A stretch of DNA of 64,000 nt, from positions 7,331-71,330 of the forward strand of contig CAZKCV010000004.1 in the NCBI GenBank assembly GCA_964551605.1. The letters are read 5' to 3'. The number at the start of each line of letters is the position of its first letter. Position 1 is the stretch's first letter. Positions 1 to 50,294 of this stretch are shown piece by piece. The stretch is from an uncultured Gammaproteobacteria bacterium. Lineage in GTDB: Bacteria > Patescibacteriota > Microgenomatia > Daviesbacterales > UBA10151. The translations under genes and the position numbers were made by a program. The notes under the pieces are model-generated. The model worked only from the letters and a program-made list of their open reading frames with translations. It did no database searches and was not told the DNA's origin.

Positions 1-626
1 TTGGGATTATGGCAGTCTTAGCCCCGGGATTTTTGGAAAAATCGTTGCAAATTAAGGCTGCTGATGCCTCATACGTCCTGATTATTCCTTTAGGACTGGG
101 GATTGTCACAGGAGGGATCATTTTGGGTAGGTTCGGCAGCAGCTTGATTAAAAGAAAATTAGTGGCCCGGGCCATTCTTTTTATCGGGTTGCTGCTTTTT
201 CTGGTTGGTTTAGCCCCGCTGATTTCCCCGGCTATCCGTTATTTCCAGTCCCCTAAGCCGGTACCATTTTTATACCAACCGCCGCTTTCCAAAGTATTAG
301 TCATAGGGTCGTTTTTAATAGGGATGGCAGTGGTTTCAATCCTGATTCCTTCCCAAACAGTGCTTCAGCAAAATACGCCCGAAGCAGACCGGGGTAAGGT
401 TTTTGCTGTCTTAGGGGTAGCTATGTCTGCACTCTCTTTAGTCCCAATTTTTCTGGTAGGTATTTTGGCTGATGTTTTCGGCACCACCCCTATTTTTATC
501 GGACTGGGGGCTTTAGTGATTGCGGTGGGGCTCTTTGGGCTTAATCCCAGTTTATTCTTTCGCAAGCACGAGTTATCTTACCGGGTCAGGGAATTTTTGG
601 GATTGGGGCATTGGGAAGGCAAGTGA
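1..626 (+). CDS. MFS-type transporter, C-terminal part (5' end lies outside the window)
   Basis: Open frame from the window edge; multiple hydrophobic helices and an MFS-like C-terminal half. The ORF track starts at 9 but the frame is open upstream. Confidence 0.55.
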   Translation, partial: GIMAVLAPGFLEKSLQIKAADASYVLIIPLGLGIVTGGIILGRFGSSLIKRKLVARAILFIGLLLFLVGLAPLISPAIRYFQSPKPVPFLYQPPLSKVLVIGSFLIGMAVVSILIPSQTVLQQNTPEADRGKVFAVLGVAMSALSLVPIFLVGILADVFGTTPIFIGLGALVIAVGLFGLNPSLFFRKHELSYRVREFLGLGHWEGK

Positions 627-1684: not shown

Positions 1685-2003
1685 GTCCCCACCTTTGAGC
1701 TAATCGGGAAAGCTGGAAAGTCACCAGTACACCCAATAAGGTAACTAAGATCGCATAGATAAATCTTGATAATACTCCTGAGCCGGGTACAGTAGGTTCG
1801 ATGAAGTCTTTAACTGTTTGTTGGATTGTTTCATTCCAGGCTAAAGCTGCGGCAAAACCAAAAGCAGACGTTGATAGGGTGACCAGTTGAGCTGTAAACT
1901 CCTTATAAGGAGACCTTGAAAGCTTGCTTGAAAGGTTTCCTTTCAAGCTTCGCTTATAGAAAACTAATCCATTCTTTTTCTTCTTGGCCATATCTTGTAT
2001 CAT
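1674..2003 (-). CDS. Small hypothetical membrane protein containing an in-frame palindromic insertion (family B)
   Basis: 109-aa ORF. Its N-terminal region (YKRSLKGNLSSKLS) is encoded by the palindrome cttgaaaggtttcctttcaag flanked by aagcttcgctta. Confidence 0.35.
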   Translation of the reverse strand: MIQDMAKKKKNGLVFYKRSLKGNLSSKLSRSPYKEFTAQLVTLSTSAFGFAAALAWNETIQQTVKDFIEPTVPGSGVLSRFIYAILVTLLGVLVTFQLSRLAQRWGLKR

Positions 2004-12733: not shown

Positions 12734-13822
12734 ATGATTGGCAAATTAATTTTATCAGATGGAACTGAATTTATAGGAGAGGGATTTGGTTTTCCCATTT
12801 CCACCTCAGGGGAGGTGGTTTTTAATACCGGCATGGTGGGTTACCCGGAATCTTTAACAGATCCGTCATATTTTGGCCAAATTTTGGTGTTAACTTATCC
12901 GCTGCAGGGAAACTACGGTGTGCCGGGGAAAGATTTTTGGGAATCCAAAAAAATACAGGTTAAGGGCCTGATTGTCCAAAACTATATAGATCATCCGTCT
13001 CACTTTGAAAGTCAGAAGACCTTAGGGAAGTGGCTGAAAGCGGAAGGAATTCCGGCACTACAGGGGATTGATACCAGGTCTTTAACTACTAAACTGAGAG
13101 AGCATGGGGTGATGCTTGGTCGGATTGAAACAGGTTACAGGCAACAGGTTACAGGCAACAGTATCTATGATCCTAACGGTGAGAATATTCTTCCTTATGT
13201 TAGCTGTAAAAAGGTGGAAGTTTATGGGGAAGGCAAGAAAAATATAGTTTTAATTGATTGCGGGGCTAAGGAAAATATCATCAGGAGTTTAGTTAAGAGG
13301 GGAGTTAAAGTAACCAGAGTGCCATGGGATTTTAATCCTTTGAAATTTATGGATTCCCGCCTGCGCGGGAATGACAAGGTAGAGAAGCTGGATTTTGACG
13401 GGGTATTAGTTTCCAATGGCCCGGGAGATCCTAAACAAGCTAAAGAAACTATAGAAACTGTCAGACAACTGCTGGCAGAGAGTATTCCCACCTTTGGTAT
13501 CTGTTTAGGCAGTCAGATTCTATCTTTAGCAGCCGGAGGCGAAACCTACAAATTAAAATTTGGCCACCGGGGTCAAAATCAACCGGTGCAGGATGTAATT
13601 ACCAAAAAAGCGGTAATTACTTCTCAAAACCACGGGTTTGCTGTAGATACTAAATCTTTAAGTAAAGACTGGACAGAGTGGTTTGTAAACTTAAATGACG
13701 GTACCAATGAGGGGATCAGACATAAAAAGAAGCCGTTTATGGCAGCACAGTTTCACCCGGAGGCCAACCCGGGTCCGACAGAGGGCGGCTATTTGTTTGA
13801 TGAATTTTTGGAATATGTCTAA
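12734..13822 (+). CDS. carA: Carbamoyl-phosphate synthase small (glutaminase) subunit
   Basis: N-terminus MIGKLILSDGT.., GATase catalytic triad region (ICLGSQ, HGF..); start moved to the ATG at 12734. Confidence 0.85.
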   Translation: MIGKLILSDGTEFIGEGFGFPISTSGEVVFNTGMVGYPESLTDPSYFGQILVLTYPLQGNYGVPGKDFWESKKIQVKGLIVQNYIDHPSHFESQKTLGKWLKAEGIPALQGIDTRSLTTKLREHGVMLGRIETGYRQQVTGNSIYDPNGENILPYVSCKKVEVYGEGKKNIVLIDCGAKENIIRSLVKRGVKVTRVPWDFNPLKFMDSRLRGNDKVEKLDFDGVLVSNGPGDPKQAKETIETVRQLLAESIPTFGICLGSQILSLAAGGETYKLKFGHRGQNQPVQDVITKKAVITSQNHGFAVDTKSLSKDWTEWFVNLNDGTNEGIRHKKKPFMAAQFHPEANPGPTEGGYLFDEFLEYV

Positions 13823-17062: not shown

Positions 17063-17130
17063 GGGGAAAGGGTGAAGGGTCAAGGGTGAAGTATTTATTT
17101 ACTTTTCCCTTTACGCTTTCCCCTTAACCC
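17063..17130. repeat. G-rich heptad repeat pair (family A): GGGGAAAGGGTGAAGGGTCAAGGGTGAAG, then a C-rich complement of the same heptad family (not an exact reverse complement)
   Basis: Four G3 tracts with 3-4-nt loops (a G-quadruplex-type motif) followed 12 nt later by the C-rich complement; lies between carB and the Fic gene. Confidence 0.5.
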
Positions 17131-20107: not shown

Positions 20108-21886
20108 ATGTTATTTTCTAAACTTGCACAGTATTTTGAAAAGTTGGAACAAACTTCCTCCCGTTTGGCTTTAATTGATATCTTGGCAGAATTGTTTGCA
20201 GAGGTGAATTTCAATGAGATTGGGCATGTGGCTTATTTAATTCAAGGCCGGGTAGCCCCGTTTTTTGAGCCCTTAGAAATAGGCATGAGCGAGAAGCTGG
20301 TAGCACACTCTATTGCCCGGGCTTATGAAGCGGAAAGAGCAGAAGTCTTAAAAGAGTACGGTAAAGTTGGGGATCTGGGGATAGTGGCTGAACGTCATTC
20401 TGGTAAGCGAAGCGCATCCAGAATCGATTCTGGACAAGTCCTTCGATCCCGAGGTCCTCAGGACCAAGGGGCCAGAATGACAGTTAATGAAGTTTTTGAA
20501 ACCTTAAGAGGGATAGCTAAGACAAGCGGTGAGGGCACAGTAGAAAAAAAGGTCTCTGCTTTAGCCGGGCTGCTTAAAAAGATGGATGATTTATCTGCCA
20601 AACACTTAGTCAGGATTCCTTTAGGGGTTTCCAGGTTAGGGGTAGGGGATCCGACTATTTTAGATGCTTTTGCCAAATTAAAACTGGGAGACAAAAGTAA
20701 AAGGAAGAGACTGGAAGGAGCATATAACCGGACTTCCGATCTAGGTTTAATCGGAGAAACTTTATGGAAAGGGGGGCTTCCCGGGGTAGAAAAACTAAAT
20801 GTGACAGTAGGCAGGCCAATCAGATCCCAGCTGGCAGAGCGGCTGCCGACTGCTGAAAAAGTGATTGAAAAGCTGGGAATGGTAAATTCTCAAAGGAAAT
20901 TGGATGGTTTCCGGGTTCAAGTGCACAAAGATGGGGACAGTGTCAGGCTATTTTCCCGGAATCTGGAAGAAACGACTCCGATGTTTCCGGAAATTGTGGA
21001 AGGGACCAAAAAACAAATTAAAGCCAAAACCGCCATTTTGGATTGCGAGGCAATTGGTTTTAACCCGGCTTCTGAGGAGTTTCTGCCTTTCCAGGAGACC
21101 ACCCAGCGGCGGCGAAAATACGGCATTGCAGAAATGGCAATAAAAATCCCTCTGAAGGCTTTTTGTTTTGATATTTTGTATAAGGATGGTAAATCTCTGA
21201 TTGAGTTGGAGCTTAAAGAAAGGTTGAAAATACTGGAGCAAACCATTAAGGCAGGGGATGTGTTGATGGTAGAAAAGGGGGAAATGGTAAGTGATGTCAA
21301 AAGATTACAAATCCTGCTTGATGATTCTATTTCCAAAGGGTTAGAGGGTTTGGTGGTTAAGCGGCCGGATTCAAAATATGAAGCCGGAGCCAGAAATTTT
21401 AATTGGGTAAAACTAAAAAGACATTCGGCAGGGGAGCTTAAAGATACGATTGATTGCGTGATTTTGGGATATATTTTCGGCCGGGGGAAGAGGGCGGAGT
21501 TTGGAGCAGGGTCTCTCTTGGTGGGAATTTATGACAGCGTGAAAGATGAGTTTGTGACAGTATCCAAGATTGGTACCGGTTTAACTGATGAGGAATGGAG
21601 GGAAATTCACAAGCGGGCGGATAAAATAAAGGTGGATCACAAACCGGCCAGGGTTAATTCAATTTTAAATCCCAGTGTTTGGATTAAGCCGGAGATTGTG
21701 ATTGAAGTTCTGGCAGACGAGATTACCCGGTCGCCAGTGCATACGGCCGGAAAAGAGGCTTCAGAGCCCGGCTATGCCCTCAGATTCCCCAGATTGGTTA
21801 AGTTCAGGGAAGCTGATAAGCAGGCAGAAGATGCTACGACTGTGAAAGAACTGGTCGAAATGTATAAGCTGCAGTATAAGAAATAA
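20108..21886 (+). CDS. lig: ATP-dependent DNA ligase (archaeal/eukaryotic type)
   Basis: KLDGFR adenylation motif I, EGLVVK motif and a DSKYEAG..W.KLK motif; 592 aa. Contains the in-frame palindromic insert GKRSASRIDSG. Confidence 0.8.
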   Translation: MLFSKLAQYFEKLEQTSSRLALIDILAELFAEVNFNEIGHVAYLIQGRVAPFFEPLEIGMSEKLVAHSIARAYEAERAEVLKEYGKVGDLGIVAERHSGKRSASRIDSGQVLRSRGPQDQGARMTVNEVFETLRGIAKTSGEGTVEKKVSALAGLLKKMDDLSAKHLVRIPLGVSRLGVGDPTILDAFAKLKLGDKSKRKRLEGAYNRTSDLGLIGETLWKGGLPGVEKLNVTVGRPIRSQLAERLPTAEKVIEKLGMVNSQRKLDGFRVQVHKDGDSVRLFSRNLEETTPMFPEIVEGTKKQIKAKTAILDCEAIGFNPASEEFLPFQETTQRRRKYGIAEMAIKIPLKAFCFDILYKDGKSLIELELKERLKILEQTIKAGDVLMVEKGEMVSDVKRLQILLDDSISKGLEGLVVKRPDSKYEAGARNFNWVKLKRHSAGELKDTIDCVILGYIFGRGKRAEFGAGSLLVGIYDSVKDEFVTVSKIGTGLTDEEWREIHKRADKIKVDHKPARVNSILNPSVWIKPEIVIEVLADEITRSPVHTAGKEASEPGYALRFPRLVKFREADKQAEDATTVKELVEMYKLQYKK

Positions 21887-22032
21887 AGCGGCTCGTCTGG
21901 CCGCAAAAAATCGCTCGCACGGTAGAGACTTGCTCGCTTGTGAGAATTTTGTGGATAGCTTAATACAGAATCATTAAGCCTGTCAGCACAAAATCCTCAA
22001 CATTTTTTGGCTGGCCTAAGACTTCGCCGCTT
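21886..22032 (+). ncRNA. Conserved ~147-nt structured intergenic element, copy 1 (candidate cis-regulatory or small RNA)
   Basis: Three nested helices: aagCggc/gccGctt, caaaaaat/attttttg and attttgtg/cacaaaat. Copy 2 has a compensatory change in the outer helix. Confidence 0.35.
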
Positions 22033-22057: not shown

Positions 22058-23389
22058 ATGGGCTATGTAGCTGATTTGCATATCCACTCCAGGTACTCCC
22101 GGGCCTGCTCACCGCAATTAAATGTGCCTAATCTGGTGGAATGGGGGAAACTTAAAGGGATTGATGTTTTGGGGACAGGGGACTGCTTGCACCCTCTTTG
22201 GTTTACCGAGCTAAAAAGCCAATTAAAAGAAAATGAGACAGGATTTTTAAGTTACGATAAAGACCCTGCAGTTAAATTTGTTTTGACAGTGGAAGTGGCC
22301 TCGATTTATTCGCATAAAGGGGCAGTCCGCAGGATCCATAATGTGATTATGCTGTCTTCGTTTGAATCAGTGGAGAAGTTACAAAAGGTCTTATTGGCCA
22401 GGCGGGCCAATCTTTCCTCTGACGGCCGGCCGATTGTAGGGATTCCCTCTAAAGAATTGCTCAGGATGTGCCTGGAAATAGATAAAAATGTGATCTTTAT
22501 GCCGGCCCATGCCTGGACGCCCTGGTTTGGCATTTTTGGTTCCCAATCAGGCTATGACAGCCTGCAGGATTGCTTTGAAGATTTAACAGAATATATTTAT
22601 GGTGTTGAAACCGGATTAAGCTCTGACCCGGCCATGAATTGGCGGATTAAGGAATTGGATAACCGCTCAATTATCTCTTGCTCTGATGCCCATTCTTTGC
22701 CTAATTTAGGCAGGGAGGCAACGGTTTTTGGGGGAAGTTTGGAAGATGGGTACGAAAGTTTATGGAAAGCTATTTCAAACAAGATTGCCACGTCGCCTTC
22801 GGCTCCTCGCAATGACGGAGTAGTGGGCACAATTGAGTTTTATCCGGAAGAGGGTAAATATCACTACACCGGCCACCGCAGTTGTAATGTGAAGTATTCG
22901 CCGGAAGATACAAAGGCTAAGGGAACTAAATGTCCGGTTTGCGGCAGGGGATTAACAGTGGGAGTAATGGAAAGAGTAGAAGAGATCGCTTCGCGATCGA
23001 GTGCAGAGTTAAGAGTTAAGAATGTGGAAGGAATGATAAAGAGCGACGAATTTTCTGACAGAGCAGGGTACAAAATGTTAGTGCCGCTTTTGCAGGTGAT
23101 TGCAGAAGCTTTGGGGACTGCCCCGACAACCCAAAAGGTTTTAACTGAATATAAAAAGTTAACAACTGCATTAGGCAGTGAAATTAAGATTTTAACTAAA
23201 GTTGATATTGGAGAGATTGCCAAAGTTTCCGGTTCAAGGGTGGCAGAAGGGGTAGATAAAGTGAGAAAGGGGGATTTGGTGATTGATCCTGGCTATGACG
23301 GGGTGTACGGGGTAGTAAAGATTTGGGATCATGGGAAGGAAACTGTCAAAGAGGCAGAGGAGGTTCCCCAGTTGGGGTTGTTTGATTAG
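22058..23389 (+). CDS. PHP-domain protein of the endonuclease Q-like (TIGR00375-like) family with a C-terminal Zn ribbon
   Basis: N-terminus ADLHIHSRYS..GTGD (PHP metal-binding) and C..CPVCGRG; 443 aa. Confidence 0.5.
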   Translation: MGYVADLHIHSRYSRACSPQLNVPNLVEWGKLKGIDVLGTGDCLHPLWFTELKSQLKENETGFLSYDKDPAVKFVLTVEVASIYSHKGAVRRIHNVIMLSSFESVEKLQKVLLARRANLSSDGRPIVGIPSKELLRMCLEIDKNVIFMPAHAWTPWFGIFGSQSGYDSLQDCFEDLTEYIYGVETGLSSDPAMNWRIKELDNRSIISCSDAHSLPNLGREATVFGGSLEDGYESLWKAISNKIATSPSAPRNDGVVGTIEFYPEEGKYHYTGHRSCNVKYSPEDTKAKGTKCPVCGRGLTVGVMERVEEIASRSSAELRVKNVEGMIKSDEFSDRAGYKMLVPLLQVIAEALGTAPTTQKVLTEYKKLTTALGSEIKILTKVDIGEIAKVSGSRVAEGVDKVRKGDLVIDPGYDGVYGVVKIWDHGKETVKEAEEVPQLGLFD

Positions 23390-23393
23390 TTTA

Positions 23394-23539
23394 AGTGGCT
23401 CGTCACAGTACAAAAAATCGCTCGCACGGTTGGGACTTGCTCTCTTGTGAGTATTTTGTGAATAGCAGTTGACTTTTATCATTAGGATATTCAGCACAAA
23501 ATCCTCAACATTTTTTGTTACTTTGTGACTTCGCCACTT
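23394..23539 (+). ncRNA. Conserved ~146-nt structured intergenic element, copy 2
   Basis: About 80% identical to copy 1. The outer helix aagTggc/gccActt covaries with copy 1; the inner helices are identical. Confidence 0.35.
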
Positions 23540-23552
23540 CTGAATCAATAGT

Positions 23553-24188: not shown

Positions 24189-24957
24189 TTTCTTAAACAT
24201 AGCAAAGCAGGCAGCTTTAGAAGCCGGGGAAGTAATAAAAAAATATTCCGGCAAGTTAAGTCAGAAGAATATCAAACATGAAGATCCGGTCGATTATGCC
24301 ACTGAAGCAGATCTGGCCGCCGAAAAAGCCATTGTTAAAATCTTGACTGCTAATTTTCCGGACCATAATTTAATAGCCGAGGAAGCAGCCAGGATTGATA
24401 AAGAATCCGACTTTACCTGGTTAATAGATCCGATGGACGGCAGTATTTCTTTTGGTTCCGGCATCCCGTATTTTTCCGTTTCCATTGGTTTGTTGAAAAA
24501 AGGCGAGCCGTTGCTGGGAGTAGTATACAATGTCAGTTTCAACCAGTTGTATTGGGCAAAGAAAGGCGGGGGGGCATACTTAAACGGGAGGATGCTCCGT
24601 GTCAGTCAGAAAAAGACTTTGGCTGAATCAGTCGGAGTATTGGACTTCGGGCATAATGTCAAAAGGCAATATAAATTAGATCTTTATATCAATAAAGTCA
24701 TTACCAAAATTGGCTATATTTATTCTTTCGGGTCAGCAGCAGCTTCTTTAGGTTTAGTAGCAGACGGCACTCTGGATTTGTACCTCAACCATGCCTATCC
24801 TTGGGATTTTGCCGGAGGGCTGATTATTGTCAGGGAGGCCGGAGGGATGGTTACTGACTTTGAAGGTCAGGAGCCGGATTGGACTAAAGAGCGGATGAAT
24901 ATTTTAGCTTCAAACGGGTTGGTGCATGAAGAGATTCTGGGGGCGCTCAGGAAATGA
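24178..24957 (+). CDS. Inositol monophosphatase family protein
   Basis: WLIDPMDGS and WDFAGG motifs; start set at the internal ATG overlapping the PRTase stop. Confidence 0.7.
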   Translation: MEDDFLNIAKQAALEAGEVIKKYSGKLSQKNIKHEDPVDYATEADLAAEKAIVKILTANFPDHNLIAEEAARIDKESDFTWLIDPMDGSISFGSGIPYFSVSIGLLKKGEPLLGVVYNVSFNQLYWAKKGGGAYLNGRMLRVSQKKTLAESVGVLDFGHNVKRQYKLDLYINKVITKIGYIYSFGSAAASLGLVADGTLDLYLNHAYPWDFAGGLIIVREAGGMVTDFEGQEPDWTKERMNILASNGLVHEEILGALRK

Positions 24958-25544
24958 AATTGATAGTCGGGCTGGGAAATCCGGGAGATAAGCGAAGCTT
25001 GCGATCTGGCGATCTTAAATATGCCGGTACCAGGCATAATTTAGGGTTTGCTGTGGTGGACAAGTTAGGGGAAAGGGTTAAGAGGGAAGGGGGAAGCTGG
25101 AGAAATGAAGAAAAATTTAAGTCTGAGATTTTAGACTTTACCCTTAACGCTTCCCGCTTTACCCTTGTTAAGCCACAGACTTATATGAACAATTCCGGCA
25201 TGGCTGTTAAGTTGCTGGCTAATTATTATAAAATCGCACCGGAAGATATCATTATTATTCATGATGAGCTGGATTTGCCTTTAGGAAAAATTAAGGTTAG
25301 GAAGGGTGGGGCAGCGGCCGGACACCATGGAGTGGAATCAATTATTGCGTCTTTGGGAACAGATCAATTTTTAAGAGTGAGATTAGGTATTGGCCCGGCA
25401 GTCGGAATAGTGGAAAAATTTGTCCTGGAACCTTTCGGCTCAAAAGAAAAACCTGCAGTTAAACATCTGATCAAGCAGGCACTAAAAGCTATTGATTTAC
25501 TTTTGGAAAAAGGTTTAGAAAAAGCCCAAAATCAATATAACTGA
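24954..25544 (+). CDS. pth: Peptidyl-tRNA hydrolase
   Basis: LIVGLGNPG..Y..TRHN and HDELDLP motifs. The CDS carries a family-B palindrome (24989-25020) and a family-A G-rich inverted pair (25068-25167) in frame. Confidence 0.85.
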   Translation: MKLIVGLGNPGDKRSLRSGDLKYAGTRHNLGFAVVDKLGERVKREGGSWRNEEKFKSEILDFTLNASRFTLVKPQTYMNNSGMAVKLLANYYKIAPEDIIIIHDELDLPLGKIKVRKGGAAAGHHGVESIIASLGTDQFLRVRLGIGPAVGIVEKFVLEPFGSKEKPAVKHLIKQALKAIDLLLEKGLEKAQNQYN

Positions 25545-29881: not shown

Positions 29882-31051
29882 ATGATCCTTTATGAATATG
29901 AAGGCAAGAAGATGTTATCTGAGGCCGGAATTGCCGTTCCTAACGGACAAGTCATTGCATCTCCTGAACAAAAAGTACCATTAAATTACCCGATTGTATT
30001 AAAAGCTCAAGTTTTATCAGGGAAGCGGGCAGAAGCAGGCGGGATTGTAATGATTGAAAAACCCGGGGATTTAGAAAATAGCCTCAATAAATTACTTGGC
30101 AAGGTAGTTAATAGAGAAAAAGCAGAAAAAGTTTTAGCTGAGGAGAAAATAGATTTTGAAAAGGAATATTATGTTTCAATCTCTTATGATACTAATACCC
30201 GGGGACCAATCTTAACTATCTCCGAGCAGGGAGGAACGGGAGTAGAAAGTAGAGAGGTTAAAATTTACCCAATTGACCCCTTAGAACCCTTGAAAAACTT
30301 ATCTTTGAGCCTGGATCAGGAGCTTTTGAAGAAAATGCTAGATTTATTTTTTGCAGTAGACAGTTTGTTATTAGAAATTAATCCATTAGTGCTGACTAGG
30401 GCAGGGCTGTGGGTGGCACTGGATGCAAAAATCAAATTAGATGATGCGGCAGCCGGCCGCCACAGCGATTGGAATTTTCCCAGCCGCTCAGCCCCGGGCC
30501 ATACCCCGACTCAAAATGAAATTGAAGCCAAGAAAATAGATGAAGGTGATTACCGGGGAGTGGCCGGCTCAGCCTATTTTGATCTTCCCGGAGATATTGC
30601 CGTATTGGCTTCCGGCGGGGGAGCCTCTTTAGCTGCTATGGATGCATTAATTAAAGTTGGCGGCAAACCGGCTAATTACACTGAATACGGGGGCAACCCG
30701 CCCCGGGAGAAAGTGGCAAAGTTAACTAAAGTTGTCTTAGGTAAGCCAAACTTAAACGGTTTATGGGTGGTAGGGGCCTTGGCTAATTTTACCAATATTT
30801 ATGAAACTTTATCCGGGTTTATTGAGGGATTGCGGGAAGCAGAAAAACTCCTGGGTAAAAAATTTGATTTTCCGATTGTGATAAGAAGAGCCGGGCCGGA
30901 AGATCAAAAAGCCCGGCAGATGTTAAAAGAAGTCAAAGATTTTGACCTGCATGTTTACGGTGAAGAGACTTCCATTACTGAATCAGCAGTCATAATTGCC
31001 GGGTTAGCCAGGGAGTATGAAATGAGGAGGAAAAATGTTACTTCTTCCTGA
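29882..31051 (+). CDS. Succinyl-CoA synthetase beta-like ATP-grasp subunit (possible citryl-CoA synthetase large subunit)
   Basis: SucC-like N-terminus MILYEYEGKKML; ligase-CoA domain GDIAVLASGGGASLAAMDALIKVGGKPANYTEYGGN. Confidence 0.65.
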   Translation: MILYEYEGKKMLSEAGIAVPNGQVIASPEQKVPLNYPIVLKAQVLSGKRAEAGGIVMIEKPGDLENSLNKLLGKVVNREKAEKVLAEEKIDFEKEYYVSISYDTNTRGPILTISEQGGTGVESREVKIYPIDPLEPLKNLSLSLDQELLKKMLDLFFAVDSLLLEINPLVLTRAGLWVALDAKIKLDDAAAGRHSDWNFPSRSAPGHTPTQNEIEAKKIDEGDYRGVAGSAYFDLPGDIAVLASGGGASLAAMDALIKVGGKPANYTEYGGNPPREKVAKLTKVVLGKPNLNGLWVVGALANFTNIYETLSGFIEGLREAEKLLGKKFDFPIVIRRAGPEDQKARQMLKEVKDFDLHVYGEETSITESAVIIAGLAREYEMRRKNVTSS

Positions 31052-31928
31052 AAATGCCAAAATTATCGGCCAGGGGATTACCGGTGCAGAAGGATCGCAA
31101 GCCCTAGAATGGATGCAAAAATACGGCACTCAGGTGGTGGGCGGGGTGACGCCGGGTAAAGGCGGACAAGAGGTATTGGGAGTACCTATCTTTAATTCGG
31201 TTAAGGAATGCCTGGATCAGGTTAGCGGTGTAATAGGTTCAGTAATTTATGTGCCACCGCTTTTTGCCAAAAATGCCGTAATTGAGGCAATAGAGGCCGG
31301 TATAAAGTGGATTTTAATAGTAACGGAAAAAATTCCCACTGCTGATACAGCTTTTTTTTACAGGCTAGCCTGTAAAAATGGGGTCAGTATCATCGGTCCC
31401 AGCTCTGCCGGGATGATTTCACCGTCAAAGCGGATTAAGATAGGTTCTATCGGCGGACCACAGCCGCAAAGATCTTATGTACCGGGACATATTGCAGTGA
31501 TTTCCAAATCCGGCAGCATGACTTCAGAAATCAGTTTACATCTTAAAAACCATGGTTTAGGGGTTTCCTGGGCCACCTGTATTGGCGGAGACAGAATTAT
31601 TGGTACGGACTTTGCGGATTTACTGTTAGAGCTGGAAACAGATCCGGAAACTGTCGCCTCAGTTATTTTTGGAGAACTTGGGGGCACTTATGAGGAAAAA
31701 GTGGCAAAACTTAAAGCTTCAGGTAAACTTAAAAAACCGGTAGTTGCTTTTATCGGGGGGGAGTTTACCATGAGTTTGCCGTCTGAGATGCAATTTGGCC
31801 ATGCCGGTGCCATAATAGAAGGTAAGATAGGGCAGCCGGCTGAAAAAAGAAGGATTTTACGTGAGGCAGGTATTGCGGTAGCAGATAATCTGGATGATAT
31901 TGCCGGATTAGTGAAGGAGGCATTATGA
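31035..31928 (+). CDS. Succinyl-CoA synthetase alpha-like CoA-binding subunit with a phospho-His loop
   Basis: GQGITGAEGS..VGGVTPGKGG and the catalytic His in QFGHAGAIIEGK. Confidence 0.65.
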   Translation: MLLLPENAKIIGQGITGAEGSQALEWMQKYGTQVVGGVTPGKGGQEVLGVPIFNSVKECLDQVSGVIGSVIYVPPLFAKNAVIEAIEAGIKWILIVTEKIPTADTAFFYRLACKNGVSIIGPSSAGMISPSKRIKIGSIGGPQPQRSYVPGHIAVISKSGSMTSEISLHLKNHGLGVSWATCIGGDRIIGTDFADLLLELETDPETVASVIFGELGGTYEEKVAKLKASGKLKKPVVAFIGGEFTMSLPSEMQFGHAGAIIEGKIGQPAEKRRILREAGIAVADNLDDIAGLVKEAL

Positions 31929-32596
31929 GTAAAACAGTCATACATAATGAATCAGGAGAAGCTAAATTTGGGGAGCAGGATCATCTGCAGTTGGCTCGGA
32001 CAGTCAGTTTTTCTGCTTTAATTTTTGAACTGCTGTCAGAAAAATCTCCCACAAAAGAGGAGCTTAAGCTTTTTGATTTAATGCTTAATTTATCAATTGA
32101 TCACGGCCCGGATGCTCCGTCAGCAGCTGCTACCATTCAGGCAGCCAAAGAAGGTAAAGGCTTTGGTGAAGCAGTGGGAGAAGGAATTGCCCGGATAAAC
32201 GAGACTCATGGCGGGGCGATAGAACCATTGATGGAGATTTTGTATAGGCAACAGGAAACAGGCATCAGGATACAGGATTTGGTGAAGGAGTATATAGAAC
32301 AGGATAAAAAGATTCCGGGGTTAGGGCATAGATTGTATAAAGACAAAGACCCCCGGACTGAGATAATTTTTCAAACTGCCGGTAAGTTAAATATCGGGGA
32401 AGAATATATGCAAATTATCAAAGAAATCAGGGATGAATTTGAAAAACAGTCCGGAAAAAGTCTGGTGATAAATATTGACGGAGCGATAGCAGCAGTGTTG
32501 TGTGGTTTTGGCTGGCCAAGTAAATTAGGGAAAGCTGTATTCATTATTGCCCGGACTCCGGGTCTATGCGGCCACTTTCTGAACACTAAATCTTAG
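31925..32596 (+). CDS. Citrate synthase-like small protein (citryl-CoA lyase / ATP-citrate lyase C-domain-like)
   Basis: GLGHRLYKDKDPR resembles the citrate synthase GFGHRVYK His motif; 223 aa. Confidence 0.45.
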   Translation: MSKTVIHNESGEAKFGEQDHLQLARTVSFSALIFELLSEKSPTKEELKLFDLMLNLSIDHGPDAPSAAATIQAAKEGKGFGEAVGEGIARINETHGGAIEPLMEILYRQQETGIRIQDLVKEYIEQDKKIPGLGHRLYKDKDPRTEIIFQTAGKLNIGEEYMQIIKEIRDEFEKQSGKSLVINIDGAIAAVLCGFGWPSKLGKAVFIIARTPGLCGHFLNTKS

Positions 32597-34679: not shown

Positions 34680-35851
34680 GAAAAGTTCAAAGTGATTTTC
34701 CAATACTTAATAAAAAAAGCAGAAAGCTTGTTTATTTGGATTCTGCTGCAACTTCTTTAAAACCAAAACAAGTGATTAAGTCTGTGACTGATTTTTATGA
34801 GAACTACTCAGCTAATGTGCATCGGGGTATATATCAGGAATCGGAAGAAGCGACAGAAAACTATGAAGGCGTCAGGGATAAAGTGGCTAAGTTAATAAAT
34901 TCAGACAGCAGTGAGGTGATTTTTACTAAAAATGCCACTGAAGCCATTAATCTGGTGGCTAAAACATGGGAAAGCGTAAAGCGTAAAGGGGAAAGGGGAA
35001 AGAAAATTTTAACTACAGTGATGGAGCATCACAGTAATTTAATTCCCTGGCAAAAGCTATTAGGTTCAAAATTAGTTTTCTTAGATATCAATAATAACGG
35101 AGAATTAGATTTATCTGATTTGGAAAATCAGCTAAAAGGAGTTTCTTTAGTAGCAGTTGCCCATGTGTCTAATGTTTTAGGAACCATTAATCCGGTAGAA
35201 AAGATTATTAAAGCAGCTCATGAGGATGGAGCTTTAGTCTTGATTGACGGCGCCCAGGCAGCCGGACATATGAGAGTGGATATTAAAAAATTAGGCTGTG
35301 ATTTTTATGTGTTTTCCGGCCATAAAATGTTAGGTCCAAGCGGGGTAGGGGTACTATGGATGAGAAAGGAAATTGCAGAGAGTCTGCCGCCATTTTTAAC
35401 CGGCGGGGGGATGGTGGGGCAGGACACACCATATAAGTTTGAAGCAGGTACCCCCAATATAGAAGGGGTAATCGGTTTGGGAGCAGCTATAGATTATTTA
35501 CGAAATGTAGGGATGGATAAAATCAGGGAGCATGAAAAAACATTAACTGAATATGCTCTGAAGAAGTTTTCCCGGGTAAGAGGTCTGACTGTATATGGCC
35601 CTTTGGATATAAATAAACGGGGAGGAGTAATTGCTTTTAATATTGAGGGTATTCACCCTCATGATCTGGCCAGTTTACTGGATAATGACGGTATTGCCAT
35701 CCGGGCCGGGCATCATTGCGCTATGCCATTGCATGAGAGATTGGGAATCAAAGCCTCTGCCCGGATCAGCTTTTATATCTATAACAGTATTAGAGACATA
35801 GACAGGTTGGTTGTTAGCCTGCAAAAGATCAAGCGCTTACTTAAAGTATAA
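34676..35851 (+). CDS. sufS: Cysteine desulfurase SufS
   Basis: PLP-Lys motif SGHKMLGPSG and class V aminotransferase fold. Contains an in-frame family-A G-rich insert (34968-35002, encoding KRKGERGKK). Confidence 0.85.
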   Translation: MRKVQSDFPILNKKSRKLVYLDSAATSLKPKQVIKSVTDFYENYSANVHRGIYQESEEATENYEGVRDKVAKLINSDSSEVIFTKNATEAINLVAKTWESVKRKGERGKKILTTVMEHHSNLIPWQKLLGSKLVFLDINNNGELDLSDLENQLKGVSLVAVAHVSNVLGTINPVEKIIKAAHEDGALVLIDGAQAAGHMRVDIKKLGCDFYVFSGHKMLGPSGVGVLWMRKEIAESLPPFLTGGGMVGQDTPYKFEAGTPNIEGVIGLGAAIDYLRNVGMDKIREHEKTLTEYALKKFSRVRGLTVYGPLDINKRGGVIAFNIEGIHPHDLASLLDNDGIAIRAGHHCAMPLHERLGIKASARISFYIYNSIRDIDRLVVSLQKIKRLLKV

Positions 35852-36438: not shown

Positions 36439-36960
36439 ATGGTAAACGGACAAATTATTTTAGCCTGTGATGAGGCAGGCGCATTTGAAGAATATATTCC
36501 CAAAGAAGTAGGTCATACCGGCGTAGGCAGGAGACATCAGGCAATTGCAGTATTGCTTCATAATGATAAAGCCGAGGTTTTGTTGCAAAGAAGAAAGCAC
36601 CAGGTATTTGATAATATCTGGGATATCACCGGAGCCACTCATCCGTTACACAAAGAAGACGGTAGAGATGAAACTTTAGAGGAAGCCACCAGGCGTTGTC
36701 TGAAAGATGAGTGGGATATTAAAGAAATAGGGGAACTTAGGGAAGTCGGAGTTTATAATTATTTTGCCAGATATAACGGATTTTGCGAGAACGAGTACTG
36801 CCACTTACTTACAGGAGAATATAATGGTGATTTTAAGTTAAATCCAGAGATCGGTTATGAATATAAATGGATAAAAAAAGGGGACTTTTTGGAAGACATT
36901 GGGAAAAATCCGCAAAAATATTCTCCCTGGGCTGTTAAAGCTGCAGAATTACTAGAATAA
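36439..36960 (+). CDS. Nudix hydrolase, type-1 IPP isomerase-like
   Basis: IDI-1-like HQAIAVLLHN..LLQRR..W.. and ENEYCHLL. The catalytic Cys position reads ITGATHP (Ala), so activity is uncertain. Confidence 0.5.
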   Translation: MVNGQIILACDEAGAFEEYIPKEVGHTGVGRRHQAIAVLLHNDKAEVLLQRRKHQVFDNIWDITGATHPLHKEDGRDETLEEATRRCLKDEWDIKEIGELREVGVYNYFARYNGFCENEYCHLLTGEYNGDFKLNPEIGYEYKWIKKGDFLEDIGKNPQKYSPWAVKAAELLE

Positions 36961-37968
36961 ATGTTCTTCAGAAAGCCTGGTGCCTTCTCCCGGAGTATTG
37001 ACGATAATATCTTTAACTTCTTCAAGTCCTTCTAATTTAGTTTTGACTTTATCAACATTTTCCTGCCCGCAGATTAAATGGACATCCTGGCCGGTATTGA
37101 TAGTAAAATAAACCGGAATGCCTTCATTCCGCCAGTGGCCGGTTAGTTTCATGATTCTAAGTGTCCCCGGAGTCCAGTAAATGAGCGGGGGAGTTTGGGT
37201 TAACATGATAGTATGAAGTTCCAGGGCTTCCTGTTCAATCAGTGGTCCCAGTTCCGCTAAGTTTTTCCCGGCAATCAGCTTTTTAACTTTTTCATTTTTT
37301 TCTTTCATCCGCGACATTCTAATGTCCATAAACGGGGAAGAGTGGGTAGCCTGCATGCCCCTGGAAGTGGGAACTTCTTTTTTACCCTCATTTACCACTG
37401 CCACTACATCTGCTATTGCCCAGTAATCAGCTGGGAAAAGTTGAGTAGCGTAAGACGTCTCGGAATTATCACCGTCCAGCCATTCCACAAAGCCGGAGGG
37501 GATGGAGCGACAAGCTGAGCCGGAGCCCTGCCTGGCTAGAATAGATAAATCTTTCTCGGATAGATTTAAGTCCGCAGCTTTTGAAGCAGCTAAACTAAGT
37601 GCTGCAAAGCCGGATGCAGAAGATGATAAACCGGTGCCGGAGGGGAAGTTATTATTAGAAACCACTTTAGCTTTTTGATCCATATTAGCCAGTTTTCTGA
37701 TCCGGTCCAGGTGTTTAATGATCCGTTCTGCTTCGCCTTCCTCCCCGCCTCGACTCGCACGCTCATCGGGCGAGGCGGGCAGGCCACCACCGTTAATAGT
37801 GATGTCGTCTTTGGAATAAGCGGGAGAGAATTCTACTGTGGTAGTGGTTAAGAGATTGCTTAAGCACATGGAGATGCTGCCGTTTTCCGGAAGCCTCAAT
37901 ATTTCATCTTTTTTACCCCAGTATTTGGTAAAAGCAATATTAGATGGTGCAATAGCGGTAGCTTTCAT
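36952..37968 (-). CDS. mvaD: Diphosphomevalonate decarboxylase
   Basis: NIAFTKYWGK, GLSSSASG and GSGSACRS (GHMP) motifs; 338 aa. Confidence 0.85.
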   Translation of the reverse strand: MKATAIAPSNIAFTKYWGKKDEILRLPENGSISMCLSNLLTTTTVEFSPAYSKDDITINGGGLPASPDERASRGGEEGEAERIIKHLDRIRKLANMDQKAKVVSNNNFPSGTGLSSSASGFAALSLAASKAADLNLSEKDLSILARQGSGSACRSIPSGFVEWLDGDNSETSYATQLFPADYWAIADVVAVVNEGKKEVPTSRGMQATHSSPFMDIRMSRMKEKNEKVKKLIAGKNLAELGPLIEQEALELHTIMLTQTPPLIYWTPGTLRIMKLTGHWRNEGIPVYFTINTGQDVHLICGQENVDKVKTKLEGLEEVKDIIVNTPGEGTRLSEEHLF

Positions 37969-43053: not shown

Positions 43054-43105
43054 TTGTAAGCTGAGCTTGCGATCTAAAGATCTTAAATTGTACATTTGTA
43101 AATTG

Positions 43106-49493: not shown

Positions 49494-50294
49494 TTACTGA
49501 ACCTCTGACCAACGTTGAAGGGTATCGGCAAATAAATCCCTTAAAATCACCACATATTTCGGCTGGTGGACTATCTTTTCCGCAGCCACTGTATTATCAG
49601 TCAGGCTGCGGCAGAAAACTATTTTACCCGGGCTTAGACTGATTAAACTGCCATAAATAGTTAAAGTGTTGGCTACAGTGGAATTAGTAGTACAAGGATA
49701 ACCGGCAGTATAAATTTTATCTGAAGAAATGATCACCGAATATATTTGAGTCACAGTTTGAGTGATACTAACGTAGCCCTTAACGACAAAGACTATGCCG
49801 GAGCTTGCGTCTCCGAAATTACTGTTAAAGGTTAAATCTCCGTCTACAAAGATAACAGCAGCGGTTTTGGAGGGCCCACCTAGAGGGGAATTAATATCTA
49901 CATTTCCATTAACTAATACAATGTCATAACTGTTTAATAGGGACCTTAAAGTGCCTTGGTTGGCGGTGGCAGTTGATGTTTTAGCGGCTTTAGATTGGGT
50001 GTAATAGAGTGATTTTAGATCTTCATAAGTAGGGATTTTATAGGAGACAAAAGCAGCTTTTAAGTCAATCACGCAATTACCGGTGGTATTGCTGAATTTA
50101 GTAGAAACTGTCGGAGCACTAATTAAGCCGCCGGCCCGGGGATTGGTGGATTGGGTTGGGCAGGCATTTTGGGCATAAACGGTTGGTAGTATAAATAAAG
50201 CTACGACAATCAAATAAGCTGCCAAAATAACTGTACCCTGTAACCTAAGACCTTTAGGTCGCAAGCTTCGCTTATACCCTGTACCCTTTATCAT
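49494..50294 (-). CDS. Secreted/membrane-anchored hypothetical protein
   Basis: N-terminal hydrophobic segment after the family-B-encoded KRSLRPKGLRL; Thr/Ser/Asn-rich body. Confidence 0.4.
   Translation of the reverse strand: MIKGTGYKRSLRPKGLRLQGTVILAAYLIVVALFILPTVYAQNACPTQSTNPRAGGLISAPTVSTKFSNTTGNCVIDLKAAFVSYKIPTYEDLKSLYYTQSKAAKTSTATANQGTLRSLLNSYDIVLVNGNVDINSPLGGPSKTAAVIFVDGDLTFNSNFGDASSGIVFVVKGYVSITQTVTQIYSVIISSDKIYTAGYPCTTNSTVANTLTIYGSLISLSPGKIVFCRSLTDNTVAAEKIVHQPKYVVILRDLFADTLQRWSEVQ

What the first reader, a model, noticed from the sequence alone, without database searches (positions are those of the whole stretch)
24989..25020. Family-B in-frame palindromic elements with the conserved 5' TAAGCGAAGC(TT)G, encoding K-R-S-L/A loops
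The 10-mer TAAGCGAAGC plus a variable perfect hairpin occurs at four sites. In pth it is gATAAGCGAAGCTTGCGATCtggcGATCttaaat, encoding DKRSLRSGDLK. In the ligase it is gTAAGCGAAGCgcaTCCAGAATCGATTCTGGa, with a 16-bp perfect palindrome, encoding GKRSASRIDSG. At 1914-1955 it is on the opposite strand as cttgaaaggtttcctttcaag + cttcgctta, encoding YKRSLKGNLSSK. At 50244-50276 it is on the opposite strand as acctaagacctttaggt + cgcaagcttcgctta, encoding YKRSLRPKGLRL. A related intergenic copy lies at 43063-43090. These behave like Rickettsia-palindromic-element-style MITEs that insert in frame into protein-coding genes.
Basis: seen in the sequence. Interest (0 to 1): 0.6.

Follow-up and report, generated by a model that had tools for sequence, protein, structure and literature searches.

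The report
Tiny mobile hairpin inserts in genes
A family of roughly 27-30-base hairpin-forming DNA elements has copied itself into this uncultured groundwater bacterium's genome, including in frame into essential genes such as peptidyl-tRNA hydrolase; this is a much smaller relative of the known in-frame palindromic elements of Rickettsia.

Summary
TAAGCGAAGC occurs 4 times in 64 kb (0.08 expected), and the quoted sequences and peptides are correct.

Three coding copies (pth, DUF5654, a 266-aa membrane protein) and the intergenic copy are one family: TA|AGC-NNN-GCTTG(C) + a variable, covarying hairpin + T|TA. Orthologues lack the insert at all three coding sites. Removing the element plus one TA restores the orthologous peptide, so the net insert is 27 nt (51 nt at one site).

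Across about 34 distinct copies from Daviesbacteria/Microgenomates contigs:
- the target is A|TA|RR;
- 30 of 34 net lengths are divisible by 3, and the other four lie outside long ORFs;
- genic copies use only two stop-free frames;
- one identical 29-mer sits at 7 or more unrelated loci.

The ligase copy is a different, 51-nt four-arm palindrome that uses the 10-mer as a loop and carries a nested 33-nt element.

Best reading: a very small non-autonomous mobile hairpin element that behaves like an RPE or MITE but is about 5 times smaller. No transposase was identified.

One result is unexplained. The pth copy is nucleotide-identical in four diverged, non-sister pth genes (0/54 against 62/120 synonymous-codon differences in the flanks).

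Verdict: a new variant of a known kind, of moderate to high interest.

The parts
24989..25017 (+). Copy C, inside pth (ORF 24954-25544): TA|AGCGAAGCTTGCGATCTGGCGATCT|TA. Net 27-nt insert encoding KRSLRSGDL between Asp12 and Lys22. Hairpin 1 is AAGC(24990-24993)/GCTT(24997-25000) with loop GAA. Hairpin 2 is GATC(25003-25006)/GATC(25011-25014) with loop TGGC.
   Evidence: Most of 120 Pth orthologues read NPG-EK/DK-Y with no insert. Covariance-model hit at 48.8 bits (although this copy was in the training set). The AlphaFold2 model has pLDDT below 50 only at residues 14-20.
50246..50274 (-). Copy D, at the N-terminus of the 266-aa secreted/membrane protein (ORF 49494-50294, -): TA|AGCGAAGCTTGCGACCTAAAGGTCT|TA. 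Net 27-nt insert encoding KRSLRPKGL between TGY and RLQGTV. It sits inside a heptamer-coded stretch, (ACAGGGT)n.
   Evidence: Homologues P0369, P0380 and P0409 read TG(F/Y)R(L/V)Q(G/V)T with no insert. Covariance-model hit at 50.4 bits.
1904..1956 (-). Copy A, in the N-terminal tail of a DUF5654 protein (ORF 1674-2003, -): TAAGCGAAGCTTG, then a 10-bp hairpin GCTTGAAAGG-AAA-CCTTTCAAGC, then a tail ending CCTTA|TA. Net 51-nt insert encoding KRSLKGNLSSKLSRSPY. It is an extended or composite member of the family.
   Evidence: None of the 120 listed orthologues has the insert, and P0241 (84% identical) reads ...NGLVFY|KEFTAQ.... DNA fold -14.8 kcal/mol, z -6.0. Covariance-model E = 0.035.
43057..43085 (+). 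Copy E, intergenic between the thiolase gene (43106-44257, -) and the OB-fold/DUF35 gene (42702-43001, -): TAAGCTGAGCTTGCGATCTAAAGATCTTA. The hairpin-1 loop is TGA instead of GAA. The copy is flanked by period-7 tandem arrays (43019-43053 and 43084-43111).
   Evidence: 44.5 bits.
20396..20479 (+). Site B, in the DNA ligase N-terminal domain (ORF 20108-21886). This is a different element type: a 51-nt four-arm palindrome CATTCTGG-[TAAGCGAAGCGCA]-TCCAGAAT-CG-ATTCTGGA-CAAG-CCAGAATG, encoding HSGKRSASRIDSGQ..ARM. The 10-mer (20404-20413) lies in its first loop.
   Evidence: The same peptide is present in ligase orthologues P0131, P0132, P0138, P0140, P0141 and P0203 and absent from most others. 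It is 51/51 nt identical in L133. Fold -20.3 kcal/mol, z -4.6.
20439..20471 (+). Nested 33-nt element of a third family (TCCTTCGATCCCGAGGTCCTCAGGACCAAGGGG, encoding VLRSRGPQDQG), inserted inside element B.
   Evidence: L133 has GGACAAG|CCAGAATG uninterrupted at this point. The family is related to the pth insert VLRQAQDKD of P0053, P0082 and P0089.

Best explanation
Copies A, C, D and E belong to a family of very small, non-autonomous, orientation-specific mobile DNA elements found in Candidatus Daviesbacteria/Microgenomates (Candidate Phyla Radiation bacteria). The anatomy is a conserved head, TA|AGC-NNN-GCT-TGC, in which AAGC/GCTT form a 4-bp stem around a triloop and GCGAAGC is the known DNA mini-hairpin. 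A second hairpin follows whose sequence and length vary but whose pairing is kept (GA-N..loop..N'-TC). The element ends in T|TA. Shown: the element inserts at an asymmetric target, A|TA|RR, and ends up flanked by TA on both sides, adding a net 27 nt (sometimes 30, 33 or 51). Shown: identical copies occur at many unrelated loci. Shown: inside genes only copies survive whose length is a multiple of three and which lie in one of two stop-free frames. These frames are sense K-R/Q/H-S/G-L-R-x-x-x-L and antisense K-S-x-S-S-Q-A-S-L. Such copies are simply translated as a 9-10-residue hydrophilic, disordered loop at N-termini or surface loops. Inferred: no RNA-level removal is needed. Inferred, with low confidence: the element is moved in trans as single-stranded hairpin DNA by a structure-recognising enzyme, an HUH/Y1 transposase of the IS200/IS605 or REP-associated (RAYT) kind. 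The likely intermediate would be a small two-hairpin 'dumbbell' circle whose junction is CTTAAG. A TA-specific DDE transposase is the less likely alternative. The ligase site B is a separate palindromic element family that reuses the same 10-mer as a loop module.
For: Over-representation restricted to the lineage. Filled versus empty sites for all three coding copies. For pth, NPGD|KY and NPGEKY occur in most orthologues. For DUF5654, none of the 120 listed orthologues has the insert, and P0241 gives the exact empty-site peptide. For the 266-aa protein, the empty site reads TGYRLQGT. In each case removing the element plus one TA restores the orthologous peptide. At copy D the duplication is exactly 2 nt (GGGTA-TA-..-TA-GGTTA). 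Target logo from 30 distinct sites: A at -1 in 27/30, purine at +1 in 30/30, purine at +2 in 27/30. This asymmetry argues against a symmetric DDE target. Copy-paste: the 29-mer TAAGCGAAGCTTGCGAGCTTACGCTCTTA is found at 7 or more unrelated loci, and other variants at 2-3 loci. There are tandem units in L105 and two copies in one mevalonate-kinase gene in L122. Hairpin 2 is 100% paired in 14 copies, and pair 17-24 takes all four Watson-Crick types (GC5, UA5, AU2, CG2). No shuffle out of 500 reached the observed covariation, and shifted registers fell to 15-46% paired. Stems of 4-11 bp occur elsewhere. Net lengths are 27, 30 or 33 in 30 of 34 copies, and the four copies of 26 or 28 nt are all outside long ORFs. 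Genic copies use only two of the four open frames. Hosts are ordinary housekeeping genes: GHMP (mevalonate-type) kinase, Fpg, class I/II aminotransferase and an oxidoreductase. The Pth model folds normally (mean pLDDT 89.5) with only the insert disordered. The element-bearing Pth proteins fall in at least 5-6 separate places on the tree, each next to element-less relatives. No known RNA family matches.
Against: No transposase, integrase or HUH protein was found among about 55 window ORFs, and none could be sought genome-wide, so the mobilising enzyme is conjecture. The terminal inverted repeat is only TAAG/CTTA. The short copies are thermodynamically marginal hairpins. Copy number per genome was not measured; the observed density is 1 per 4-50 kb. 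The metagenome sample was drawn with a pattern that fixed the head and the GA..TC..TTA frame, so conservation of those positions in that sample is by construction. Orthologous copies do not decay like junk. The pth copy is identical in four diverged genes (0/54 against 62/120 synonymous-codon differences). The second pth allele differs by compensatory, amino-acid-changing substitutions. Ligase element B is 51/51 identical across ligases that are 78% identical. These points fit selection on the nucleic acid, or homing, better than simple selfish spread.
Confidence: 0.7

Rival explanations
1. The element, or at least its head-plus-hairpin core, is a host-level functional cis-element. It would be a structured DNA or RNA motif bound by a cellular factor, for example for mRNA processing or stability, translation pacing near the 5' end, or nucleoid or replication functions. 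It would be kept by purifying selection, possibly after domestication of a mobile ancestor.
For: The pth copy is nucleotide-identical across four pth genes whose flanking same-amino-acid codons differ in 52% of pairwise comparisons. Between the two pth alleles, changes fall on first and second codon positions (S to P, G to S, D to G) and preserve pairing: one compensated pair and one G.T wobble. Only 1 of 8 third positions in the core changed. In L132 the terminal TAs have mutated while the core is intact. Element B is 51/51 identical in L133. About 12 of 22 genic or near-genic copies lie in the 5' UTR or the first 25 or so codons. Both imperfect stems (L002, L116) have G.T on the TAAGCG strand.
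Against: Most orthologues of every host gene do without it. Both orientations occur in genes. The copies sit in unrelated genes, UTRs, intergenic repeat clusters and tRNA-fragment leaders, with no common functional context. Hairpin 2 varies freely in sequence and length. Identical copies at many unrelated loci look like spread, not independent recruitment. The folding energy is marginal. The conservation sample is small: 6 pth sequences and 2 ligase sequences.
Confidence: 0.15
2. The copies at orthologous sites are not inherited but re-acquired. The element would be a homing-type insert that repeatedly enters the same permissive TA site, or would be passed between co-occurring Daviesbacteria lineages by very short-patch recombination. 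Identity would then reflect recency, not constraint.
For: Element-bearing Pth sequences are scattered over the tree, each next to element-less sisters, and L127 adds a sixth placement. Flanking synonymous sites differ within 3-6 nt of the element borders. Element-bearing pth genes all have GAT|AAA (a TA at the site), whereas most empty ones have GAR AAA with no TA. Another element family occupies nearly the same pth position in three further scattered lineages. The ligase loop shows rapid turnover of many element types. Several of these lineages come from the same sequencing project.
Against: The target requirement seen at other sites is only A|TA|RR, which is too loose to explain re-use of one site. 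The TGGC-loop variant was found only in pth among 35 metagenome hits, so no pool of this variant is evident. The L002/L132 allele shows ordinary synonymous drift, including loss of the terminal TAs, as expected for an old inherited copy. The neighbour-joining tree of a 176-column protein alignment is weak.
Confidence: 0.1
3. The inserts are generated locally rather than transposed. Candidate processes are replication slippage or template switching at quasi-palindromes, or expansion around the heptamer arrays. The shared head would then reflect convergence on the very stable GCGAAGC mini-hairpin.
For: Three copies (D, E, L097) sit inside heptamer tandem arrays. Tandem units occur in L105. At copy A the insert end CTCCTTA is the inverted complement of the adjacent host TAAGGAG. 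Template-switch correction would produce compensatory stem changes without selection. The 10-mer also appears as a loop in unrelated hairpins (site B and L126).
Against: The same 29-mer, including loop bases, occurs at 7 or more unrelated loci. The 14-nt head is conserved far beyond the 7-nt mini-hairpin. There is a consistent asymmetric target and a TA duplication. The net length is a discrete 27 or 30 nt. The motif is absent from 1.06 Mb of other bacteria, which share the same mini-hairpin physics.
Confidence: 0.04

Closest known systems
Rickettsia palindromic elements (RPE-1 to RPE-10; Ogata et al., as summarised in review PMC10969869)
   Same: Dispersed palindromic repeats that insert into unrelated housekeeping ORFs without breaking the frame. 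They add a conserved peptide at positions compatible with the protein fold, and also occur in non-coding DNA. They are found in a small, reduced genome.
   Different: RPEs are about 100-150 bp; these elements are 27-33 nt net. The phylum is different (Candidate Phyla Radiation/Patescibacteria). The architecture is a conserved head plus a variable hairpin rather than a long conserved palindrome. There is a TA duplication and an asymmetric A|TA|RR target. No sequence comparison with RPEs was made.
[quoted passage not shown] 2008, Genome Res 18:1484. The citation was seen in PMC3116915. The content is recalled from my own knowledge because the paper is not held.
   Same: Mobile-looking repeats of only about 21-27 nt with a shared hairpin structure. 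Nested or tandem insertions are the evidence for mobility. They co-occur with heptamer tandem repeats (STRR) in the same genomes. The transposition mechanism is unknown.
   Different: Different phylum and sequence. Here there is systematic in-frame occupation of essential genes, a defined TA duplication, and nucleotide-identical copies at orthologous sites of diverged genes. A direct comparison was not possible.
REP / REPIN elements and their RAYT (Y1 HUH) transposases (PMC3116915)
   Same: Hairpin repeats of 20-40 nt with a conserved short head next to the stem. Recognition depends on structure. The proposed mobility is through single-stranded DNA and an enzyme acting in trans.
   Different: REPs are extragenic, carry a GTAG-type head, and replicate as inverted doublets (REPINs). 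Here copies are singletons or direct tandems, often intragenic, with head TAAGC-NNN-GCTTGC. No RAYT gene was identified.
Prokaryotic MITEs with TA duplication (Correia, RUP and Nezha-type, IS630/Tc1-mariner-related)
   Same: Non-autonomous and multi-copy, flanked by a duplicated TA, able to fuse in frame with host ORFs, and forming stem-loops in transcripts.
   Different: Typical MITEs are 80-500 bp with 10-30-bp terminal inverted repeats. Here there is only TAAG/CTTA, the element is too short for a double-stranded synaptic complex, and the target is asymmetric.
d(GCGAAGC) extraordinarily stable DNA mini-hairpin (Hirao and colleagues; review PMC13037366)
   Same: The exact heptamer is the centre of the conserved 10-mer. 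It can fold on its own as single-stranded DNA.
   Different: That is a physico-chemical motif, not a genetic element. In this family the GAA triplet is replaceable (TGA, AGA, AAG, AAA, ATA) while the longer AAGC/GCTT stem is kept.

Membership tests
Rickettsia palindromic elements (RPE) | Length about 100-150 bp | tested here: not met
   Net inserts are 27, 30 or 33 nt (51 nt for copy A). The RPE size is taken from PMC10969869.
Rickettsia palindromic elements (RPE) | Inserted in frame into unrelated ORFs, adding a conserved peptide | tested here: met
   pth, DUF5654 and the 266-aa protein in the window; GHMP kinase, Fpg, aminotransferase and oxidoreductase genes elsewhere.
Rickettsia palindromic elements (RPE) | Sequence membership in RPE-1..10 / Rickettsia lineage | not tested
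   The host is Candidatus Daviesbacteria. No RPE consensus sequences were available for comparison.
MITE (as defined in PMC10969869) | Short (<500 bp), no transposase gene, multiple dispersed copies | tested here: met
   29-nt units with identical copies at 7 or more loci.
MITE (as defined in PMC10969869) | Terminal inverted repeats of about 4-30 bp | tested here: inconclusive
   Only TAAG...CTTA, which is 4 nt and includes the duplicated TA. In the commonest variant the two halves form a longer imperfect palindrome, but not in the window copies.
MITE (as defined in PMC10969869) | Flanking target-site duplication | tested here: met
   A TA on both sides. Three filled/empty comparisons restore the host peptide after removal of the element plus one TA. 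Target logo A|TA|RR. A target-TA plus element-end-TA with no true duplication cannot be excluded.
MITE (as defined in PMC10969869) | Mobilised in trans by a cognate autonomous IS with matching ends | not testable with these tools
   No transposase in the window. Genome-wide searches were exhausted.
REP / REPIN-RAYT | Extragenic location | tested here: not met
   At least 15 copies lie inside ORFs.
REP / REPIN-RAYT | Inverted doublet (REPIN) organisation | tested here: not met
   Window and related loci contain singletons. The only array (L105) is a direct tandem.
REP / REPIN-RAYT | Short conserved head next to a hairpin whose pairing, not sequence, is conserved | tested here: met
   The head TAAGC-NNN-GCTTGC is invariant apart from the triplet, and hairpin 2 covaries. 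The head sequence differs from GTAG.
REP / REPIN-RAYT | A RAYT (Y1 HUH) gene in the genome, flanked by the repeats | not testable with these tools
   Only 64 kb of this genome is available.
IS200/IS605-derived mini-elements (PATE-like) | Subterminal hairpins at both ends; insertion 3' of a short fixed target in one orientation, without a true duplication | tested here: inconclusive
   Two hairpins lie 1-3 nt from the ends, and an asymmetric target has A-TA on the left and the element ending in T-TA. This is compatible with the model but cannot be distinguished from a 2-nt duplication.
Small dispersed repeats (SDR) of cyanobacteria | 21-27-nt hairpin repeats with nested insertions | not testable with these tools
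   The size and the tandem or nested behaviour are similar, but the defining paper is not held. The comparison rests on my own knowledge.

The most novel reading that the evidence does not exclude
These may be among the smallest mobile DNA units known: a roughly 27-nt single-stranded 'dumbbell' of two hairpins with circle junction CTTAAG. An HUH-type enzyme would insert it in one orientation at A|TA|RR. Its nucleic-acid core would also be actively maintained across species inside essential genes, by selection for a cis function or by homing. On this reading CPR bacteria carry a conserved, structured signal written through the coding sequence of genes such as pth, mevalonate kinase and fpg.
Probability: 0.2. 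Interest if true: 0.8.

Novelty: new variant of a known kind. Interest (0 to 1): 0.6.

Why it matters
In-frame palindromic elements are known mainly from Rickettsia, and very small mobile repeats mainly from cyanobacteria. This window shows both behaviours combined, at about 27 nt, in the Candidate Phyla Radiation, whose roughly 1-Mb genomes are usually described as streamlined.

It matters for three reasons:
- It sets a lower size bound that any proposed transposition mechanism must explain, and points to single-stranded hairpin DNA.
- It shows that essential enzymes tolerate 9-17-residue inserts. In Pth the insert lies between GLGNP and the TRHN motif, which by my own knowledge of Pth contain key active-site residues (not tested here). 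Such inserts affect annotation, alignment and phylogenetic markers for CPR genomes.
- Orthologous copies are identical at the nucleotide level while their flanks are diverged. This gives a concrete, testable case of either selection on nucleic-acid structure inside coding sequence or homing of a mini-element.

The searches of the held literature found no description of this family.

Tried and rejected
**Viral origin.** A scan of IMG/VR for the 16-mer head gave 9 chance-like hits with no hairpin or tail.

**Known RNA family.** Rfam gave no hit in the window.

**Insertion into functional tRNA genes.** Several metagenome copies looked as if they lay in tRNA D-loops. ARAGORN and inspection show they are 5' tRNA-Arg-like fragments in the leaders of intact tRNA-Arg genes.

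**RNA-level excision (mini-intron).** Rejected, because genic copies are always a multiple of three and stop-free, while 26- and 28-nt copies occur only outside long ORFs.

**Thermodynamic support for the short hairpins.** Not significant, so covariation was used instead.

**General scan for TAAG...CTTA units filled by hairpins.** My criterion was too strict and it found nothing useful.

**Covariance-model census.** It found no further convincing copies in the window. There is only a doubtful hit at 63397-63427, E = 4.6.

**Promoter reading of TTGCGA...TAAAT.** The spacing is too short, as seen directly in the sequence.

**Variable hairpin copied from the flank or pairing with the target.** No consistent match was seen. 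The CTCCTTA|TAAGGAG palindrome at copy A rests on only 3 informative bases.

**Search for a transposase in the window.** About 55 ORFs were scanned against Pfam and none was found.

**Other.** The exact-sequence look-up of the window's Pth found no record, although an identical protein, P0001, is in the protein collection. The Elhai 2008 paper could not be read.
Full report
**1. The observation.**
The sequence at 24989-25020 is TAAGCGAAGCTTGCGATCTGGCGATCTTAAAT. The 10-mer TAAGCGAAGC occurs four times, at 1947-1956(-), 20404-20413(+), 24989-24998(+) and 50265-50274(-). The expectation is 0.08, and no shuffle out of 100 reached four. A fifth, diverged copy lies at 43057-43085. The host genes are:
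- a DUF5654 protein;
- an ATP-dependent DNA ligase;
- peptidyl-tRNA hydrolase (pth);
- a 266-aa protein with no Pfam match.

The contig belongs to Candidatus Daviesbacteria (CPR/Microgenomates). Identical Pth and ligase proteins are on a 73,914-bp NCBI contig, and the closest named homologues are Daviesbacteria. L001 is a syntenic Daviesbacteria contig.

**2. Anatomy.**
Aligning the window copies with relatives fetched from public assemblies gives this unit: TA|AGC-NNN-GCT-TGC, then GA-N(2-9)-loop-N'(2-9)-TC, then T|TA.
- The stem AAGC/GCTT is invariant. Its triloop varies: GAA, TGA, AGA, AAG, AAA, ATA.
- With GAA the centre is d(GCGAAGC), the known extra-stable DNA mini-hairpin (PMC13037366).
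- The second hairpin varies in sequence and length (4-11 bp) but is almost always perfectly paired.

In 14 distinct 29-nt copies hairpin 2 is 100% paired. Pair 17-24 takes all four Watson-Crick combinations (GC5, UA5, AU2, CG2). No shuffle out of 500 reached the observed covariation score, and shifted registers fell to 15-46% paired. The outer GA/TC pairs of the metagenome copies were fixed by my search pattern, so only the inner pairs are informative. The head is invariant, which says nothing either way about its stem. Predicted DNA folding energies of the short copies are weak.

**3. They are insertions, flanked by TA.**
- **pth.** Most of 120 orthologues read GLGNPG-EK/DK-Y-x-x-RHN. Only five carry DKRSLRSGDLK or EDKRSLRPSGLK. 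Pth genes from distant bacteria are about 185 codons with no insert.
- **DUF5654.** None of the 120 listed orthologues has the 17-residue insert. P0241 (84% identical) reads ...NGLVFY|KEFTAQ....
- **The 266-aa protein.** Homologues read TG(F/Y)R(L/V)Q(G/V)T, where the window has TGY-KRSLRPKGL-RLQGTV.

In each case deleting the element plus one TA restores the orthologous peptide:
- GGAGA-TA-AATAT gives GDKY;
- GGGTA-TA-GGTTA gives GYRL;
- TTCTA-TA-AGGAG gives FYKE.

At copy D the repeated bases are exactly TA. Thirty distinct sites give an asymmetric target: A at -1 (27/30), purine at +1 (30/30) and purine at +2 (27/30).

**4. Evidence for copying.**
A metagenome scan for head + gap + TCTTA returned 35 loci.
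- The identical 29-mer TAAGCGAAGCTTGCGAGCTTACGCTCTTA lies at seven or more unrelated sites, and other variants at two or three.
- L105 has three tandem units.
- One mevalonate-kinase gene (L122) has two copies, and its orthologue in L007 has one at a nearby but different TA.
- The family pattern is enriched in the window (4 against 0.12 expected) and in 206 kb of Daviesbacteria/Microgenomates loci (4 against 0.39). It is not enriched in 1.06 Mb from other bacteria (1 against 2.0, with no hairpin).
- It is not found in viral contigs beyond chance.

**5. How genic copies survive.**
Of 34 copies, 30 have a net length of 27, 30 or 33 nt. The four of 26 or 28 nt are all outside long ORFs. Copies inside long ORFs use only two frames, although four frames are stop-free:
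- sense: K-R/Q/H-S/G-L-R...;
- antisense: K-S-x-S-S-Q-A-S-L.

Hosts include a GHMP (mevalonate-type) kinase, Fpg, a class I/II aminotransferase and an NAD-binding oxidoreductase. About half of the genic or near-genic copies lie in 5' UTRs or the first 25 or so codons. An AlphaFold2 model of the window Pth has mean pLDDT 89.5, with only residues 14-20, the insert, below 50. This is a disordered loop between strand 1 and helix 1. The elements are therefore translated, and selection filters for length and frame. No RNA-level removal is required.

**6. Site B is something else.**
The ligase loop after LGxVAExLS is an insertion hot spot. Orthologues carry many unrelated peptides typical of translated palindromic repeats: HPERSEGSQ...RDSS...QNDK, FPRKRES...GSRIKSGMT and VIPAKAGIQ.... 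The basal state is about KFKVQSSKL. Six listed orthologues share HSGK(R/Q)SASRIDSGQARM or a close variant of it. Its DNA is a four-arm palindrome, CATTCTGG-[TAAGCGAAGCGCA]-TCCAGAAT-CG-ATTCTGGA-CAAG-CCAGAATG. The window copy additionally contains a nested 33-nt element (20439-20471) that is absent from L133. That nested element is related to a second family, which occupies nearly the same pth position as the family-B element in three other lineages (VLRQAQDKD). The 13-mer TAAGCGAAGCTTG is also the loop of an 11-bp hairpin in L126. The 10-mer is therefore a module shared by several element types.

**7. The unexplained part.**
The pth element is nucleotide-identical in the window, L001, L003 and L127. 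In the flanks, same-amino-acid codons differ in 62 of 120 pairwise comparisons; in the element the figure is 0 of 54. These genes, and the two with the second allele, fall in separate places of a Pth neighbour-joining tree, each next to element-less relatives.

The second allele (L002, L132) differs in these ways:
- one compensated stem pair;
- one G.T wobble;
- one loop base.

The compensated stem pair and the loop change are amino-acid-changing, whereas only one of eight third positions of the core changed. In L132 the terminal TAs have mutated. Ligase element B is 51/51 identical between the window and L133, although the ligases are 78% identical. Simple selfish-element decay does not predict this. 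The options are:
- selection on the nucleic-acid core;
- repeated homing-like acquisition;
- biased repair or concerted evolution.

**8. Mechanism.**
Shown:
- orientation-specific insertion at A|TA|RR with TA on both sides;
- discrete unit length;
- copy-paste spread;
- hairpin pairing maintained.

Inferred: a 27-nt unit is too short for a double-stranded DDE synaptic complex, the target is asymmetric, and structure rather than sequence is conserved in hairpin 2. Together these point to a single-stranded, hairpin-recognising system of the HUH/Y1 kind (IS200/IS605, RAYT), acting in trans. This step is a hypothesis.

**9. Comparison and verdict.**
The behaviour matches RPEs (in-frame palindromic inserts; PMC10969869) and, from my own knowledge, the cyanobacterial SDR elements. 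Membership of RPE fails on size. Membership of REP/REPIN fails on extragenic location and doublet organisation. Membership of MITE is met for copy number and duplication but inconclusive for terminal repeats. The searches of the held literature found no description of this family in CPR bacteria. I rate it a new variant of a known kind, with interest 0.6.

Noticed in passing
window 13129-13161, 17068-17091, 25067-25096, 32246-32277, 34968-35002, 43019-43053, 43084-43111, 51837-51867, 57031-57061, 59795-59824, 60039-60069: At least 11 period-7 tandem arrays of 3.4-5 copies, resembling cyanobacterial STRR repeats. Several lie inside ORFs and are translated. In pth, residues 40-49 or so (GERVKREGGSW) are heptamer-coded, and orthologues carry other heptamer-coded peptides at the same place (RVKGQGESW, DRLQGTGDSW, KCKVQSAKW). 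Three hairpin-element copies (D, E, L097) sit inside such arrays.
   Followed up: partly
window 20380-20480 (ligase residues ~95-125) and orthologues P0122-P0240: The ligase N-terminal-domain loop is an insertion hot spot. Different Daviesbacteria lineages carry many unrelated peptides typical of translated palindromic repeats (HPERSEGSQ..RDSS..QNDK, FPRKRES..GSRIKSGMT, VIPAKAGIQ.., SLRKQGS..). This implies rapid turnover at one permissive site.
   Followed up: partly
window 20439-20471; L128 1193-1216: A third element family, GTCCTTCGA...TCAGGAyNAAGG, encoding VLR..QDK/QDQG. It is nested inside ligase element B in the window. It occupies nearly the same pth position as the family-B element in three scattered lineages (P0053, P0082, P0089).
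   Followed up: partly
L119 1058-1125; L116 4640-4702 (-); L115 3767-3822 (-): Upstream of intact tRNA-Arg genes, just after a promoter-like TAAAAT, lie 5' fragments of tRNA-Arg-like sequence (acceptor plus D-arm). Each is interrupted by a family-B element, at the D-loop TA (GGA-TA-GA) in L119 and L116 and near position 8-9 of the fragment in L115. ARAGORN does not call them. Whether they are decayed tRNA genes or functional leaders is unknown.
   Followed up: partly
window 21880-22030 and 23387-23540: A direct repeat of about 150 nt (84% identity) follows the ligase gene and again follows the next gene (22058-23389, no Pfam match). Rfam has no hit. It could be a shared regulatory or terminator region, or a small RNA.
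   Followed up: no
window 57001-57143 and 59764-59906: A 143-nt direct repeat (83% identity) containing heptamer arrays. The second copy covers the 5' end of the ORF 59764-60297. The first lies between ORFs 56474-57001 and 57220-58551.
   Followed up: no
L120 669-697: A family-B element lies between a BrnT toxin domain and a BrnA/CopG antitoxin domain, and a single stop-free frame runs through both. The insert may have fused or re-linked a toxin-antitoxin pair.
   Followed up: no
L126 ~2105-2157 (-): TGATGTCCTCG-TAAGCGAAGCTTG-CGAGGACATCA: the 13-mer head forms the loop of an 11-bp hairpin on a 51% G+C contig. The head motif therefore circulates as a module outside the family-B architecture.
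   Followed up: no
window 29882-32596, 36952-46469, 50294-51898, 51923-52608: Gene content notable for a CPR bacterium: ATP-citrate-lyase-like genes, a cluster of mevalonate-pathway genes (HMG-CoA reductase, a probable HMG-CoA synthase, thiolase, DUF35, three GHMP-family kinases, and a decarboxylase), a protein with a thrombospondin type-1 domain, and a HepT/MNT toxin-antitoxin pair.
   Followed up: no
window 63397-63427: TAGGCAAAGCTTTGGCAAGCCAGGTATTTTA: a weak covariance-model hit (E = 4.6) that could be a degenerate family member, antisense within ORF 62388-63560. It is not distinguishable from chance.
   Followed up: no
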